From an uncultured Verrucomicrobiae bacterium (GTDB lineage Bacteria; Verrucomicrobiota; Verrucomicrobiia; Limisphaerales; Palsa-1400): 64,000 bases of DNA. Position 1 is the first letter of the stretch. Each line of letters begins with the position of its first letter. The position numbers were made by a program. Positions 33,901 through 39,900 of this stretch are shown one piece after another. The DNA lies in contig CAVPOM010000017.1 in NCBI GenBank assembly GCA_963707025.1, forward strand, positions 128,001 to 192,000, read 5' to 3'.

Positions 33901-36900
33901 GCATGGACATGACGGAGAAGCATCTCAACAGCCCACGGCTGGGGGAACTGGGTTTGGCGCTCTCCATGCAAACGGGCATGGCGCAAAGCGGCATGACTAT
34001 GCTGCAACTTGAAATCAAAGGCGGCAAGGGAGCGCTGGTGGACGCCCAGGCCTTTGACGCCGACGGCAAGCCCTGGCCGACCTTCCTGCAAATGGAAAAC
34101 ACCGGCATGGGCGACAACAGCAGTTGCCAGTTGATGATCGCCGGCTCGCCCAAGCCGCCGCTCTCCCTGGCCTTCACGGCCAGCGGCGCCGGTTCCAGCG
34201 TGGAAGTGCCCGTCCTGGTGGAACATGTGCCCCTCACCGCAAAATAATTCCAGGAAAGGAACCCGAATCATGATAAAATTCATTCGATGCACTTTGACTC
34301 TGGCCGCGGCTTGGCTGGCACAGTATCAGTCAACATTAAACGCCCAATTTTTCCCCGGGCGGGGGGCGCGTCAAAACCTCGTCCTGACTATCCATGCCGA
34401 CGGCCGTTGCGAGGTCGGGAGCCTGTCCGTCATCAGCCGCCCGATGGCCGAGCAGCAGGTGCGGATGATGGAGATGCAGAAAAAGATGGAAGAGGCTGCG
34501 GAGAACGGCGATATGGCGCGCATGACCAACGCCCAGGCGGAGGCAAAAACCAACGCCTTGACAGACGAGCAGTTGAAAGAAAAATACCTGGCAACGATGG
34601 AAGAGGAGTTTTCCGCGATGGGAGAGCAAGACGAGGCGGACAAGCCCAATGTCACCGTGGACAAAGATACTGTTACCGTCACGAAAAAGGCGTCCTTTGC
34701 CTCCATCCAGGAAATGTTGCAAAGCCGCTCCGGGTTTCAGGCCGCGGCCAGCCTCCTCTATTTTGAAAACATGCGCTTTGAACAGGACACCAACGGCCAT
34801 CTCCTGGTCACGCTCACCCCTTCCACGGCCATGAAGCGCGGACTTAAAAACATGCGGTCGGAATGGAAAATGGAAGGTGTGAATGCCGAATTGAAATTCG
34901 TCTTCCCCGGCAAAGTCCTCTTCAGCGGCTTTCCCGAAACCCAGACCAACGCCACCTGGATTGCGGTGGATTCCCAAAAGGATGAAACCCTGGACGCGCT
35001 GGCCAAACTTTACGACGGCCCCATCGTCATCACTGCCGAACCCGCCGGCCTGACGCTAAAGGAACCGCTCGATTTGAAGAAGCTGCGGCCCCGCGAGGGG
35101 CGGACCGGCGGAGTGGGAGACGACCTGCCCATCACGGAGGGCGGCGCCGGCTTTGTCGCCCAAGCCGAGGGCATTATGACGACCACGCTCCATGTCTTTC
35201 CGGGCGGCGAGCATTATTTCAAAGAATTTACTCTGCCTTTCGGGGGACAGGGCGGCACAATGGTCCACGCCAAGTTGTTTGCGCCCAAGGGCCGCACCCT
35301 CCAATCGGTGACCGAGGTGAAGCTGCTCACCGCCACTGATGACAAAGGACGCGCCGTCGCCGCCGGCAAAAATGACGAGGGGGAGGAAATGAATGCGTTC
35401 GCTTTTGTCCAATCCGGCATGGAGGAGGGTCAGGAGAACAACGGCGCGGAAATGCAGCTTCGCCTGGAGTTGCCGCAGGCGGATGCGCAGGCCATTGATG
35501 AGGTCACCGCCGAAGTGGTGGCCGTGACCGCCGGCAGTTGGAAGGAAATGACGCTGACCAACATCACCGAAACGTCCACCAACGAATTTGGCCTCGGCGC
35601 ATTGCTGCCGGGCGCCAAACTGGTCATCAGCAAGTTCTCCAACAAGAACAACATGCTCACCATGAAAGTGCAAATCAAAGGACCGGCCACCGTGAAAAAC
35701 TTGAAGGTCCAGGCCAAAGTCCCCGGCTCGGAGCAAGGGCGGGGTTACAGCAATTCCTCGGAGATGAACGTCAGCTCCAAGGGCGGGGAAACCACGCACA
35801 CCCTCCAGATCAACGCCTCGATCTTTAACCAGAACGGCGCCAAGGTGTCCGGCCCGTTCCAACTGCTCCTGCGCTACCCGCAGGATTTGAAGCGCGAGCG
35901 GGTGAATTTCAAACTCAAGGGCCTGGACCTGCTGTAAGCCCGGATCGCCGTTGAACTTTCAGGCCGCCCCCGCTACCCTGGCTCTGTGACTGCTTTTTTG
36001 CGATACTTCGGTGTTCTCAATGCCGCCCTGTGGCTGGGCGCGGCCGTTTTCCTCATCATCGGTTTGCCCGCCCTTTTTTCCGATGAACTTAAAAACTACC
36101 TCGTGCCGCCCAAGGGGCCAACCATCACCGGCTTGGCCGCGCAGATGGTTCTCGCCCGCTTTTTCATCCTGCAATATTGCTGCGGCGCCGTCGGCCTGGC
36201 GCATCTGGCGCTGGAATGGCTCTACTGCGGCAAGCCGCCCCGGCGACGGGACCTGTCCCTTCTGGCGCTCCTGATCGGGCTGTCCCTGGCCGGCGGCTTA
36301 TGGATGCAGCCCAAACTCAAGGATTTGCAGCACCAGATGTATTACGGCGCCACCCAGCAGGCGCAAGACCAGGCCAGGCTCGCCTTTAAGGCTTGGCATG
36401 GGGCCGCCGAATGTGGCAATCTGGTGACGATTGGCGGGCTGCTGATTTATCTCTGGCGTGTCAGCCGCCCGGCCGGTCAGGCCCGCTTTGGAAACCTGAA
36501 CCTGGACAAAATGCGCAGTTGACATATTGCCGTTGAAATTGAATAAATACAGTGTAACGTGAAGATGTGGTCAATTAACGGCAATGAGCACCGTTAACTG
36601 ACATGTGAGCGCGTCGCTTGCGGGCGCAGAAGAGACACAGACAGACAGTGACAATGAAACATAAACAGATATGATTTCAAACGAACGCCCATCTCCTCAG
36701 GGATACCGGTCCTACAGCGCCGGTCCTCCCCGTCCCCCGGTCAACGAGGACACCTTAAAAACGGAAAAGATCCAGATCGAGCGCAAGACCTTCATCTTTA
36801 CGCTGAAGGAAAATCCGCGCGGCCGGTTCCTGCGCATCACCGAAAACGTCAATGGCCGCCGCAACAACGTCATCATCCCCTCCACAGGCTTGGACGAGTT

Positions 36901-39900
36901 CAGCAAAGTCCTGAATGAGATGGTGAGAGCCGCGGCGGAAATTCCCGTCAAGGATCAGCAGCCGTAGTCCGGGCCGCCCGCCGGGGCAAGCCAGCCCGCC
37001 GCGGGGCGGGGGCCGCCAGCGGGATTTGTCAAGTAGAAATATGGGGCGGGGAAGCCGGCTTCCCCTTGCTTTTCCCCCTTGCTTTGCCCCGCGCCGCGGT
37101 CCTGGCCCGGGCCTTCCCCTTCGCCGCGCGCTTTTTCGCCCGCCTGGGCTCCAGCTTGCCCGCGTCGCCCCACAGCCCTTCCAGGTCGTACTTTTCCCGC
37201 ACATCCGTCCGCATGACATGCACAATCACGTCGAAGTAATCCATCACCTGCCACGGCGCATTGGCCGCCCCGTCCACGGCGCGCGGCGACAGGCCGTGCT
37301 CCTCCCGCAGCCGGTCTGTGATCTCGTTGACGATGGCCCGCAAGTGCGGTTCGGCCGCCCCCGAGGTGATGACGAAAAAATCCGTGATGGAAGAAAGATT
37401 CCGAACGTCAAGGACGACCGTGTTTTCGGCCTTCTTATTTTCGGCCAGCTCGCGGCACAGCAGCGCCAGTTTCTTGGATTCCATTTTTCGTCCTTACCCT
37501 AACCCCGCCGCGCTCAAAGATAAAGCCGATTGTTGGCAATGGCCTCCGCCACCGCGGCCGGCATCAGCCAGGCGACCGGCAGCCCCGCCTTGACCCGCGC
37601 CCGGATCTCGGAGGAGGACACCGCCAGGGCAAACCCGCGCAAGGTCCGTCCGCGAAACGGCGGGGGAACCCCCGCCGGCCCTTCCCCCGGACGGGGCGCG
37701 ACCACAAATTGCGCCAGGCGCGCCAGTTCCCCGGCTTGGCGCCAGCGCGGCAACTGCGCCGTCTGGTCCGCGCCGATCAGATAAAAAAGCTCCGCGCCGG
37801 GGAATTTTTCCGCGTAATGCCGGAGCGTGTCCACGGTGTAGGAGATGCCGCCGCGCCGGATTTCCAGATCGTCAACTTCGGTCCCCGTTTCCCCGGCCAG
37901 CGCCAGCCGCAAGCAGCGCAGGCGTTCCGGCGCGGGCGCGGGGGCCGCTCCCGGTTTGAAGGGCGATTGCGCCGCCGGAATAAAACAGAACCTTGTCCAG
38001 CCCGAGTTCCTCCCGCGCCGCCCGTGCCACCAGCAGATGCCCCAGATGCACCGGGTCAAACGACCCGCCTAACAAACCAATTCTCATACACGGGTTTACA
38101 GCCGGGCCACGAGCAGTTCGCGCTGGTAGGCCAGTTCCTTGGGAAGGTCGGAGTGGAGCTTGAAGGAAAGATCGTCGCTGGCCAGTGATTCCCGACGCCA
38201 TTCTTCCACATTGATCTCCTGCGCTTTGGCCAGTTTGGCCGCATCGAAATGGTCCATGCCGCGCAGGTCAAAGTCGCGCGGGCCGGGGACCCACCCCAGC
38301 GCGGCCTCGCGGGCGTCGGCCCGGCCGTGGCAACGGTCCACAATCCATTTGAGCACGCGCATGTTCTCCCCAAATCCGGGCCAGAGGAACTTCCCGTTTT
38401 CATCGCGTCGAAACCAGTTGACGTGAAAAATGCGGGGCGGCGCCAAAAGCTGTTTGCGCATCTTCAGCCAGTGGCGGAAATAATGGCCCATGTGGTAGCC
38501 GCAAAAGGGCAGCATGGCCATGGGATCGCGGCGCACCTGGCCGACCGCCCCGGTGGCGGCGGCGGTGGTTTCGGAACTCAAGGTGGCGCCAATGAAGACG
38601 CCGTGAATCCAGTTGAAGGCCTGATAGACCAGCGGCATGGTGGTGGTGCGGCGGCAGCCGAAGATAATCGCGCTGATGGGCACGCCGTTGGGATCATCGG
38701 CCTCGGCGGCAAAGGCGGGATTGTTGGTCATGGGCGCGGCAAAACGGCTGTTGGGGTTGGCCGCCGGGGTTTTGCATTCCGGCGTCCACGGCTGTCCCTT
38801 CCAATCGGTTAATCGCGGCGGCGGCACCTTGGTCTTGCCTTCCCACCAGACATCCAAGTCGGGCGTCAAAGCCACGTTGGTGTAAATCGTGTCGTGGGAA
38901 ATGGTGGCCATGGCGTTGGGGTTGGTCTGCGCATTGGTGCCGGGGGCGACGCCGAAATAGCCGTTTTCGGGATTGATGGCGTAGAGGCGGCCGTCCGGGC
39001 CGGGTTTCATCCAGGCGATGTCGTCGCCGATGGTTTGAATTTTCCACCCGGCCATATGCGGCGGGGGGACGAGCATGGCGAAGTTGGTCTTGCCGCAGGC
39101 GCTGGGAAAGGCGCCCGCCACGTAGGTTTTTTCCCCGTCGGGCGACTGGGCGCTGAGGATGAGCATGTGCTCGGCCAGCCAGCCCTCCTTTTGGGCCAGG
39201 AACGAGCCGATGCGCAAGGCGAGACATTTCTTGCCCAGCAAGACGTTGCCGCCGTAATTGGAGGCGGTGGAGATGATGGCGTTGTCGCGCGGAAAATGGG
39301 CGATGTAGCGGTGCTTGGGATCCAGGTCCAGCATGCAATGCAGGCCGCGGTTGAAATCTTCCCCCGCCCCCAAATGTTCATAAGCCACCTGCCCCATGCG
39401 CGTGACGATGCGCATGCTCAACACCACATAAATGGAGTCCGTCAACTCGATGCCGACCTTGCTCAGCGGCGAGCCGGGCGGTCCCATCAGGTAGGGAACC
39501 ACGTAGAGCGTGCGGCCGCGCATGGCGCCGCCGCAGAGGGTTTTGAGTTGGCGGTACATCTCCGCCGGCGCCATCCAATTATTGGTCGGTCCCGCCTCGT
39601 CGGCCGTTTCCGTGCAGATAAAGGTGCGGTCCTCGCTGCGCGAAACGTCGGACGGATCGGACCGGTGGTAATGGCAGCCGGGCAGCTTTTGCGGGTTGAG
39701 CTGGATTAATACCCCTTGCGCCACGGCTTCCTCAGTCAACGCTTTTTTCTCACTGGCCGAGCCGTTGCACCAGAAAATGTGGTCCGGCTGGCAAAGTTTG
39801 GCCGTTTCCTCCACCCATCGCAGGACGCAGGGATTGGCGGTGTTTGGTTTTGATGATTTCATGAAATGGGAAGGGAAGCGGGTTCTACGCGGTGGAGTTG

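What a model noticed while it worked through the whole genome (the two positions that open the first line are those of the whole stretch)
36671..36967. Single-repeat PUR (Pur-alpha-like) protein as a near phylum-specific core gene
A 98-aa protein made of one PUR repeat, 42% identical to plant Pur-alpha over the repeat, is encoded in the core genome next to rsfS-nadD, with a second copy (g00392, C3:222089-222391) in a mobile region; in the comparison tables the family is in all 30 genomes of the family and at least 2201 of 4822 Verrucomicrobiota but only about 390 of some 185,000 other bacterial genomes. I read it as a signature single-stranded DNA/RNA-binding protein of Verrucomicrobiota, a homodimeric PUR domain like Borrelia Bpur, with a housekeeping role in nucleoid or RNA handling. 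New would be that this eukaryote-type fold is a conserved core factor of a whole bacterial phylum.
Evidence so far: Pfam PurA PF04845 i-E 2.8e-12 (g05568) and 3e-9 (g00392), model positions 80-146 of 219; best Swiss-Prot hit PUR_ARATH 42% over 59 aa, E 3e-9. relatives.tsv: n_family 30 of 30, n_order 544 of 769, n_phylum 2201 of 4822, n_domain 2593 of 189784, archaea 0. It ranks second among the families of this genome for the share of bacterial carriers that are Verrucomicrobiota (0.85), after Amuc_1100. Neighbours: DUF4149, rsfS, nadD, pckG.
(Added by a program. Inside this text positions count along the whole contig: contig position 128,001 is position 1 of the stretch shown here. "Call 12" and the like, gene names such as g00115 and contig names such as C1 are that model's own, and its searches are not shown. 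The text may have been shortened before it was handed on; [...] marks where a part breaks off. The agent that wrote the report below was given it as the finding of a first reader that could run no searches.)

Follow-up and report, generated by a model that had tools for sequence, protein, structure and literature searches.

The report
Small PUR nucleic-acid-binding protein, lineage-restricted
This is a real, strongly conserved gene for a small protein made of one Pur-alpha-type repeat that probably pairs with itself to bind single-stranded DNA or RNA; it is nearly universal in this bacterium's own order but patchy in the rest of its phylum.

Summary
The ORF (36671-36967, +, 98 aa) is real. It matches Pfam PurA (45 bits, cut-off 25), folds as four strands plus a helix, keeps the DNA-contact residues of Drosophila Pur-alpha, and is under purifying selection. 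A homodimer is predicted (ipSAE 0.85, best control 0.00), though similar dimers are already solved.

The "core factor of a whole phylum" reading is too strong. The family was found in 168 of 201 genomes sampled from the window's order. It was found in only 97 of 401 genomes drawn evenly from the phylum, mostly all-or-none by family. A profile built from the bacterial sequences gave the same result as Pfam's model.

Borrelia Bpur belongs to a different Pfam family (PF11680), which also matches Bacteroides. So bacterial single-repeat PUR proteins are not confined to this phylum; only the eukaryote-like PF04845 branch is. NCBI already names these proteins "PUR family DNA/RNA-binding protein".

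New points:
- The genome holds a third, decayed copy.
- The gene has a conserved promoter of its own (exact TTGACA in 75 of 82 loci).
- The order shares an N-terminal MISNERPSP tail.
- Related bacteria encode three- and four-repeat PUR proteins, some beside mobile-element genes.

Function is inferred, not shown.

The parts
36671..36967 (+). PUR gene, 98 codons plus stop
   Evidence: Open frame with ATG start. Pfam PurA 45 bits, cut-off 25. Median dN/dS 0.13 against orthologues, from 62 usable of 80 pairs.
36671..36745 (+). N-terminal tail (aa 1-25), rich in Pro, Ser, Gly, Arg and Tyr, predicted disordered. Both ends are conserved (MISNERPSP... and ...PP[KR]PPVNEDTLK); the middle varies in length.
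   Evidence: pLDDT 59-63 over the first 20 residues. Tails of the order's orthologues listed. The tail is absent from most homologues of other families.
36746..36940 (+). PUR repeat (aa 26-90): four beta strands, then one helix
   Evidence: AlphaFold model: strands 27-36, 39-48, 51-60 and 63-70, helix 71-90, core pLDDT 95-98. The best Foldseek matches (ranks 1-24 as listed) were PUR structures; the next match had E 0.35.
36806..36829 (+). K46-E-N48-P-R50-G-R-F53, counterpart of the K138/N140/R142/F145 DNA-contact motif of Drosophila Pur-alpha repeat II
   Evidence: Residue-by-residue alignment to 5fgp/3k44. Contact residues taken from passages of PMC4764581. N48, R50 and G51 are invariant in 22 diverse homologues; R64, counterpart of R80, is kept in at least 90%.
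36519..36524 (+). Exact TTGACA, candidate -35 box of the gene's own promoter; it overlaps the stop codon of the DUF4149 gene
   Evidence: An exact TTGACA lies within 200 nt upstream in 75 of 82 loci, usually 60-100 nt before the ATG. It is followed by AA and, 17 nt later, an A/T-rich box. The transcription start is not mapped.
36526..36585 (+). Inverted repeat with arms at 36526-36541 and 36572-85, found only in the window's closest relatives (L026, L027). In these the TTGACA-to-ATG distance is 152-160 nt rather than about 75-90 nt.
   Evidence: Read from the sequence. Function unknown. The first arm lies in the promoter spacer and holds the motif GCCGTTG, which recurs in many relatives' spacers.
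36604..36670 (+). Leader: a short GC-rich hairpin region followed by a purine-rich stretch up to the ATG
   Evidence: Small hairpins recur at this place in relatives with different sequences. Folding energies are not exceptional: mean z -0.50; 23 of 81 below -1. Unproven.
37048..37075 (+). Terminator-like hairpin plus T-rich tail, 80 nt after the stop, inside the 3' end of the convergent rsfS gene
   Evidence: Consensus scan found 4 such sites in the region against 2.2 expected from shuffles. Weak.

Best explanation
The gene encodes a small PUR-family protein, a type II PC4-like fold. One chain supplies one beta-beta-beta-beta-alpha repeat. Two chains swap helices to form one PUR domain, so the dimer presents two identical Lys-Asn-Arg plus Phe surfaces on its sheets. 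With these it binds single-stranded, probably purine/G-rich, RNA or DNA and can hold short duplexes open.

It is transcribed on its own from a conserved sigma-70-type promoter with a leader of roughly 70-150 nt. In the window's order (nearest named relatives: Limisphaerales, Pedosphaera, 'subdivision 3' MAGs) it acts as a general, constitutively needed nucleic-acid-binding factor. The most likely role is as an RNA-binding post-transcriptional regulator or chaperone that may also control its own mRNA, as reported for Borrelia BpuR.

Shown here: the gene, the family, the predicted fold, conservation, selection, synteny and distribution. Inferred: dimerisation (model only), ligand, RNA-versus-DNA preference, autoregulation and the cellular role.
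For: Family and fold:
- Pfam PurA 45 bits against a cut-off of 25.
- phmmer to solved Pur-alpha repeats I and II, E about 1e-15.
- Model pLDDT 86, core 95-98, beta4-alpha.
- Foldseek ranks only PUR structures on top.

Binding residues: K46, N48, R50, F53 and R64 align with K138, N140, R142, F145 and R80 of Drosophila Pur-alpha. Mutating those reduces DNA/RNA binding, and mutating F145 abolishes unwinding (passages of PMC4764581; alignment). N48 and R50 are invariant in 22 diverse homologues.

Dimer: ipSAE 0.85 in three runs, best of 3 controls 0.00. The runs agree in at least 95% of contacts and partner pLDDT is at least 79. The mark was reached by 20 of 30 proteins solved as pairs of one chain and 1 of 23 solved as single chains.

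Constraint and importance:
- Median dN/dS 0.13, maximum 0.27, from 62 usable of 80 pairs.
- 168 of 201 genomes of the order carry it.
- It is kept in both sampled genomes of a family whose genomes are only 0.9 Mb (f13 2/2).
- Convergent RsfS lies downstream in 69 of 81 close loci.
- An exact TTGACA lies upstream in 75 of 82 loci.

Context: no Hfq and no cold-shock-domain gene was found in G000 or in 4 other genomes of the class, while the controls matched in 5 and 10 of 14.
Against: - There are no binding, structural or expression data for any member of this bacterial branch.
- The dimer pass may come from the model's memory of solved PUR dimers (Bpur 3nm7/3n8b, Pur-alpha I-II).
- Many lineages of the same phylum gave no match (304 of 401 sampled), as did a few families inside the order (f73 0/4, f79 0/4, f80 0/3). 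The function is therefore dispensable or replaceable.
- Nothing in the genomic context points to RNA rather than DNA. Neighbours differ between families, and extra copies lie in IS and restriction-modification regions.
- The leader hairpin is not supported by folding energy.
- Autoregulation rests only on analogy and on a purine-rich leader.
Confidence: 0.65

Rival explanations
1. A DNA-level factor. The dimer binds single-stranded or melted DNA as a nucleoid-associated, replication, repair or recombination helper, like PC4, Whirly or YdbC, rather than acting on RNA.
For: - The fold class (PC4-like type II) includes ssDNA binders such as YdbC, PC4 and T5 PC4-like (passages of PMC7549692).
- Pur-alpha unwinds dsDNA through the conserved Phe.
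- Extra copies and three-repeat relatives lie beside restriction-modification genes, IS elements, a serine recombinase and a TrwB-type coupling protein.
- RecQ and RmuC are neighbours in two distant families.
Against: - Bpur prefers RNA.
- The core copy has no conserved DNA-metabolism neighbour.
- Neighbours in other families are mostly unrelated to DNA: polyprenyl synthase, DnaK, PPDK, ECF sigma.
Confidence: 0.2
2. A specific transcription regulator or co-regulator of a few genes, as Bpur is co-repressor of erp, including its own promoter. The promoter spacer carries a conserved GCCGTTG-type motif.
For: - Bpur enhances BpaB repression (abstract of PMC3764826).
- A sequence is conserved inside the promoter spacer, and the window's clade has an inverted repeat there.
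- An ECF sigma factor gene lies directly downstream on the same strand in 3 of 19 distant loci: L010, L011, L014.
Against: - No target is known.
- The motif may be part of the promoter itself.
- Very high sequence conservation and retention in 0.9-Mb genomes fit a general role better.
Confidence: 0.1
3. A recently acquired eukaryotic gene fragment, or a mis-binned eukaryotic sequence, with no role of its own in the bacterium.
For: It is far closer to eukaryotic Pur-alpha (profile E 3e-27) than to Borrelia Bpur (E 0.006-0.011).
Against: - All 113 bacterial repeat rows, together with the six rows of two further bacterial-type proteins that my rule had labelled eukaryotic and one eukaryote-type row, form one clade of 120 (SH-like support 95) apart from the eukaryotic repeat I, II and III groups.
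- Synteny with bacterial genes holds in 69 of 81 loci.
- dN/dS is 0.13.
- The promoter is of bacterial type.
Confidence: 0.02

Closest known systems
Eukaryotic Pur-alpha (PURA), PUR repeats I-II; Pfam PF04845; PDB 3k44, 5fgp, 8cht
   Same: Same Pfam family and the same beta4-alpha repeat. The K-x-N-x-R-x-x-F motif and the second Arg are kept. 32-45% identical to each of the three repeats of a plant-type protein.
   Different: One repeat per chain instead of three, so the domain must form between two chains. It has a bacterial promoter and bacterial synteny. The N-terminal Pro/Ser/Gly/Arg/Tyr tail is specific to the order.
Borrelia burgdorferi Bpur/BpuR (BB0047), PDB 3nm7/3n8b; filed under Pfam PF11680 (DUF3276) according to PMC3575825
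   Same: A bacterial single PUR repeat that forms a homodimer and binds ssDNA, dsDNA and RNA (passages). The predicted fold matches (Foldseek prob 1.00, TM 0.53-0.70).
   Different: Only a remote sequence relative: not hit at E<=1 by the protein alone, and E 0.006-0.011 with the family profile. It belongs to a different Pfam family, and PF11680 was not found in G000 or 4 other genomes of the phylum.
Type II PC4-like domains: PC4, phage T5 PC4-like, YdbC/DUF2128, SP_0782
   Same: Small beta4-alpha units that dimerise and bind single-stranded nucleic acids (review PMC7549692, passages).
   Different: No sequence relation was detected here. Only weak Foldseek matches (4bg7 E 0.46; Whirly 1l3a E 0.43).

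Membership tests
PUR family (Pfam PF04845 PurA) | Sequence match above Pfam's gathering score | tested here: met
   45 bits against 25; E 1.1e-11. The C3 copy scores 35.2 bits.
PUR family (Pfam PF04845 PurA) | PUR repeat fold: four antiparallel strands followed by a helix | tested here: met
   Predicted only: strands 27-70 and helix 71-90 with core pLDDT 95-98. Top Foldseek hits are all PUR structures.
PUR family (Pfam PF04845 PurA) | Two repeats pack into one PUR domain (here, a homodimer) | tested here: inconclusive
   ipSAE 0.85 against best control 0.00; the mark was reached by 20 of 30 solved one-chain pairs and 1 of 23 solved single chains; contacts agree in at least 95%; pLDDT at least 79. 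Similar dimers are solved, so the pass may be from memory. No measurement exists.
PUR family (Pfam PF04845 PurA) | Conserved nucleic-acid-contact residues (KNR + F, second Arg) | tested here: met
   K46, N48, R50, F53 and R64 align with K138, N140, R142, F145 and R80. N48 and R50 are invariant; R64 is kept in at least 90% of 22 homologues.
PUR family (Pfam PF04845 PurA) | Binds purine-rich (GGN)n single-stranded DNA or RNA | not testable with these tools
   Needs EMSA or fluorescence polarisation with purified protein.
Bpur-type bacterial PUR (Pfam PF11680 DUF3276) | Sequence match to PF11680 | tested here: not met
   Only PurA was reported, even at E<=10. PF11680 was found in 0 of 5 genomes including G000, while the control Bacteroides thetaiotaomicron matched.
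   96 of 401 with PF04845 and 97 of 401 with the family's own profile; mostly all-or-none by family.
Core gene of the window's own order | Present in most genomes, found once in most carriers, in a conserved place | tested here: met
   168 of 201 genomes, 118 of 141 high-quality. By my reading of the handle table, 11 carriers, G000 included, had two or more matches. RsfS lies convergent downstream in 69 of 81 close loci and NadD in 64.

The most novel reading that the evidence does not exclude
The Verrucomicrobiota-type PF04845 clade may be the closest prokaryotic kin of eukaryotic Pur-alpha, and so a possible donor or recipient in an ancient transfer. It has independently built single-chain three- and four-repeat PUR proteins, some carried beside mobile-element genes. 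In its carriers, of which the three tested here have neither Hfq nor cold-shock proteins, the single-repeat dimer would serve as the general single-strand RNA/DNA chaperone.
Probability: 0.2. Interest if true: 0.7.

Novelty: new member of a known kind. Interest (0 to 1): 0.45.

Why it matters
PUR proteins are studied almost only in animals (PURA syndrome, FXTAS) and in one spirochaete. This bacterial branch is much closer in sequence to the eukaryotic protein than Bpur is. It is small and symmetric, and it occurs in culturable bacteria, so it could serve as a simpler model for how the KNR+F surface reads nucleic acids.

For microbiology, it is a candidate general RNA/DNA-binding factor in lineages where I found no Hfq and no cold-shock proteins. 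The three- and four-repeat bacterial forms show the step from an inter-chain to an intra-chain PUR domain happening outside eukaryotes.

It does not support the claim of a phylum-wide signature gene.

Tried and rejected
1. Was absence elsewhere in the phylum an artefact of Pfam's eukaryote-derived model? No. A profile of 22 bacterial homologues gave 97 of 401 against 96 of 401.

2. Do PUR-lacking genomes carry the Bpur-type family instead? PF11680 was found in 0 of 5 genomes. That sample is small.

3. Does PUR replace cold-shock proteins? CSD was found in 91 of 401 genomes. By my count from the tables, 17 genomes have both, 80 have PUR only, 74 have CSD only and 230 have neither. Independence predicts 22 with both, so there is no clear exclusion. 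Families f7, f23 and f29 lack both. Hfq was found in 0 of 5 genomes.

4. Expression. Two peat metatranscriptome runs from two studies hold contigs 90-95% alike that lie only on 36707-36915. These come from relatives, the runs were found with this gene, and RNA libraries can hold DNA. This is not evidence of expression of this gene or of its level.

5. Leader structure. Folding energies of 81 leaders against shuffles gave mean z -0.50, with 6 below -2. Rfam found nothing relevant.

6. A conserved operon. None exists outside the order (0 of 19 distant loci share the window's neighbours; neighbours listed).

7. Naming oddly labelled carriers. 11 of the 80 best genome records carry non-Verrucomicrobial NCBI labels (Bifidobacteriaceae, Saccharimonadales and others). 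All 11 show the same RsfS synteny, so I read the labels as wrong. The tool gives no kinship for them.

8. Literature. No paper in the library holds both 'Pur-alpha' and 'Verrucomicrobia' (0 hits). A broader search gave nothing relevant among the 20 listed of 8,416 hits. The Akkermansia transposon-library paper was not found as a searchable text, so I made no essentiality look-up.

9. NCBIfam has no model for the protein.

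
Full report
**What is there**

The window holds an open frame at 36671..36967 on the + strand, with an ATG start and 98 codons.
- It matches Pfam PurA (PF04845) at E 1.1e-11, 45 bits against a gathering score of 25. Residues 26-87 match model positions 80-146 of 219.
- No other Pfam family appears even at E<=10, and NCBIfam has no model for it.
- Against the sequences of solved structures, it hits Drosophila Pur-alpha (5fgp, 3k44; E about 1e-15, both repeats I and II) and human PURA (8chv and others; E about 1e-11). 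Borrelia Bpur is not hit at E<=1.
A DUF4149 membrane protein lies upstream on the same strand (35986-36522). RsfS (37029-37484), a NadD-like cytidylyltransferase and GTP-PEPCK lie on the opposite strand, so RsfS is convergent with the PUR gene.

**It is a real gene under constraint**

- A word-indexed search found 4999 clusters at E<=1e-3 among 5001 candidates. The best 120 were 71-95% identical, and some NCBI records already call them 'PUR family DNA/RNA-binding protein' or 'RNA-binding protein' of Verrucomicrobiae.
- Against 80 orthologues from related genomes, 62 pairs gave a usable dS. Their median dN/dS was 0.13 and the maximum 0.27.
- In an alignment of 22 diverse homologues, R38, K39, F41, N48, R50, G51, T57, E58 and P70 are invariant.

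**Fold and assembly**

- With that alignment AlphaFold gives pLDDT 86, and 95-98 in the core. The model has four strands (27-36, 39-48, 51-60, 63-70) and a helix (71-90), with a low-confidence N-terminal tail.
- Foldseek puts only PUR structures on top: Pur-alpha I-II, Pur-alpha III, then Bpur. The next match has E 0.35.
- Two copies were predicted to bind. The score was 0.85 in three runs and the best of 3 controls was 0.00. The runs agree in at least 95% of contacts and partner pLDDT is at least 79. The mark was reached by 20 of 30 proteins solved as pairs of one chain and 1 of 23 solved as single chains.
- The interface joins each helix (residues 71-94) to the other chain's sheet, as in a PUR domain.
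- Because Bpur and Pur-alpha dimers are solved, this pass shows likeness rather than proof.

**Binding surface**

In the Drosophila Pur-alpha-DNA structure, K138, N140, R142 and F145 of repeat II contact the DNA, as do R80 and other residues of repeat I. Repeat I also carries the same motif (K61, N63, R65, F68), though of these only K61 touches DNA in the crystal. Mutating these residues lowers DNA and RNA binding, and F145 is needed for unwinding (passages of PMC4764581). The alignment places K46, N48, R50, F53 and R64 of the window protein at these positions. A homodimer would carry the motif twice.

**Copies in this genome**

- There is the core copy described above.
- A 56%-identical copy lies on contig 3. 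It sits next to an N6/N4 DNA methylase that is split by an IS3-type transposase and fused to an Mrr-like nuclease.
- A third copy on contig 9 has decayed, with in-frame TGA and TAG codons and a frame change. It lies near copies of the same IS.

**Distribution**

- PF04845 was found in 96 of 401 genomes drawn evenly from the phylum (95 of 379 high-quality) and in 0 of 14 named control genomes.
- Pfam's model is built mostly on eukaryotes, so I repeated the search with the profile of 22 bacterial homologues. The result was 97 of 401.
- The pattern is mostly all-or-none by family. Present: f8 31/31, f10 5/5, f14 4/4, f24 8/10, f13 2/2 (genomes of 0.9 Mb). Not found: f6 0/26, f7 0/35, f23 0/65, f28 0/10, f29 0/18, f30 0/24.
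- Within the window's own order it was found in 168 of 201 genomes (118 of 141 high-quality, 104 of 119 genera, own family 3/3). A few families lacked it (f73 0/4, f79 0/4, f80 0/3).
- The phylum draw held only two genomes of this order besides G000.
- Either way, it is not a core gene of the whole phylum.

**Is the PUR fold in bacteria special to this phylum?**

No.
- According to the legend of Figure 2 in PMC3575825, Borrelia Bpur is filed under Pfam PF11680 (DUF3276).
- PF11680 matches Bacteroides thetaiotaomicron among the controls, but none of 5 genomes of this phylum.
- The bacterial profile links the two families only weakly: Bpur at E 0.006-0.011 against Pur-alpha at 3e-27.
- So bacterial single-repeat PUR proteins fall into at least two branches, and the phylum bias belongs to the eukaryote-like PF04845 branch.
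- The ESM Atlas lists this protein's cluster (7802 members, Verrucomicrobiota commonest). It also lists a smaller PF04845 cluster of 86 members in which Peregrinibacteria are commonest.
- I could not sample other phyla directly.

**Relatives and synteny**

- The 80 best genome records (of 502 confirmed) are 64-95% identical. Of these, 68 are labelled Verrucomicrobiota, Limisphaerales, Pedosphaera or 'subdivision 3', 1 is unlabelled, and 11 carry other labels.
- Of 81 close loci, 69 have RsfS convergent downstream, 64 have NadD and 38 have DUF4149 upstream. All 11 oddly labelled records have RsfS downstream, so I read those labels as errors.
- None of 19 loci from other families shares these neighbours.
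- In those 19 loci the neighbours vary. An ECF sigma factor lies directly downstream in three; elsewhere I found RecQ, RNase R, RmuC, Dus, QueA, DnaK, PPDK and polyprenyl synthase.
- The gene is therefore best read as monocistronic.

**Promoter and leader**

- An exact TTGACA lies within 200 nt upstream in 75 of 82 loci, mostly 60-100 nt before the ATG.
- It is preceded by an A/T tract and followed by AA. After 17 nt comes an A/T-rich box.
- In the window the hexamer is at 36519-36524, overlapping the DUF4149 stop codon.
- The window and its two closest relatives have a TTGACA-to-ATG distance of 152-160 nt, and an inverted repeat (arms at 36526-36541 and 36572-36585) lies in that stretch.
- A short GC hairpin recurs in the leaders, but folding energies are unremarkable: mean z -0.50, with 23 of 81 below -1.
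- The stretch before the ATG is purine-rich.
- BpuR is reported to bind its own mRNA and autoregulate (abstract of PMC6736767). The same is possible here but untested.

**The tail**

In the window's order the protein begins with a conserved MISNERPSP, then a stretch of variable length rich in Pro, Ser, Gly, Arg and Tyr, then PP[KR]PPVNEDTLK. Most homologues in other families start just before the repeat. Two (L012, L025) have long acidic C-terminal tails.

**Multi-repeat bacterial forms**

- The profile found 2230 representatives at 50% clustering with E<=1e-3 (1176 at 1e-10).
- Of the top 150, 25 have one repeat, 5 have two, 96 have three, 21 have four, and one each has five, six or eight.
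- Most three-repeat ones look eukaryotic; for example P0145 is Pur-alpha of Musa.
- At least seven three- or four-repeat representatives begin with the same MISN... tail as the window protein, and several more begin MITNERP.
- Eleven metagenome loci encode uninterrupted three-repeat frames. I annotated three of them (L108, L109, L114); their neighbours include an AraC/PocR regulator, an MmeI-type restriction-modification enzyme, a large serine recombinase and a TrwB-type coupling protein.
- A model of one such protein (pLDDT 80) superposes on the two-repeat domain of Drosophila Pur-alpha, with TM 0.86 by target length and rmsd 2.0 A over 141 columns.
- I built a FastTree of 248 repeats on 71 columns. 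All 113 bacterial rows, the six rows of two further bacterial-type proteins and one eukaryote-type row form one clade of 120 with SH-like support 95. The eukaryotic repeats I, II and III group apart.
- The bacterial multi-repeat proteins therefore arose within bacteria.
- The tree is unrooted and short, so the direction of any transfer between bacteria and eukaryotes stays open.
- Earlier notes of this scan describe PUR-like proteins in Asgard archaea. I did not test them.

**What replaces it, and what it might replace**

Hfq and cold-shock-domain genes were not found in G000 or in four other genomes of the class. Across the phylum sample, CSD (91 of 401) and PUR (97 of 401) overlap in 17 genomes against 22 expected by chance, and 230 genomes have neither (my count). 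There is no clear complementarity.

**Verdict**

This is a new, uncharacterised member of a known kind: a bacterial single-repeat PUR protein. It is notable for its closeness to eukaryotic Pur-alpha, for its order-wide conservation and for its multi-repeat kin. Its function is inferred from homology alone.

Noticed in passing
window 37982-37985 (- strand), inside nadD (37514-38201): nadD is split between two frames. The N-terminal part, with the [11 protein letters not shown] motif, ends in a run of four T. With one T fewer the frame would continue as ...[14 protein letters not shown]. This is probably a homopolymer error of the assembly, less likely a real frameshift in an essential gene.
   Followed up: partly
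G000:C9:420474-420760 (-) = L003 about 1390-1680: A third, decayed PUR copy with in-frame TGA and TAG codons and a frame change. It lies beside a CHASE2 Ser/Thr kinase, IS3-type transposases, an AAA ATPase and an FRG-domain protein.
   Followed up: yes
L108-L118 (metagenome contigs); proteins P0123-P0135, P0146, P0170, P0175: Bacterial three- and four-repeat PUR proteins with the same MISNERPSP start as the window protein. Some lie next to a serine recombinase, a TrwB-type coupling protein or an MmeI-type restriction-modification enzyme. A model of one matches the intramolecular Pur-alpha I-II domain. I know of no description of multi-repeat bacterial PUR proteins; the literature passages I read speak of a single repeat in bacteria.
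   Followed up: partly
L010 5680-7023, L011 5259-5867, L014 5353-5961: In three loci from other families of the phylum, an ECF sigma factor gene follows the PUR gene directly on the same strand.
   Followed up: no
G000 whole genome; G063, G132, G012, G054: No Hfq (PF17209) and no cold-shock domain (PF00313) was found in any of these five genomes, although the controls matched. Across the phylum sample CSD is patchy (91 of 401).
   Followed up: partly
L029, L060, L063, L065-L068, L070, L075, L085, L105: Eleven genome records labelled Saccharimonadales, Bifidobacteriaceae, Pseudomonadales, Methylomirabilota, Omnitrophota and others carry the Verrucomicrobial PUR gene with its RsfS synteny. Their NCBI organism labels look wrong.
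   Followed up: partly
L012 4902-5210 (-), L025 4893-5195 (-): In one family the PUR homologue has Ile/Leu in place of Arg/Phe at the R52-F53 position and carries a 30-40-residue acidic Asp/Glu-rich C-terminal tail, reminiscent of the acidic tails of SSB-type proteins.
   Followed up: no
P0121 (647 aa), P0122 (445 aa): Metagenome proteins with eight and six PUR repeats in one chain. Their origin is unknown and their N-termini are not of the Verrucomicrobial type.
   Followed up: no
window 32616-35937 (+): Two long adjacent genes (543 and 570 aa) for Met/Gly/Ala-rich proteins with signal-peptide-like starts, one with a sub-threshold LppM match. They lie just upstream of the DUF4149 gene.
   Followed up: no
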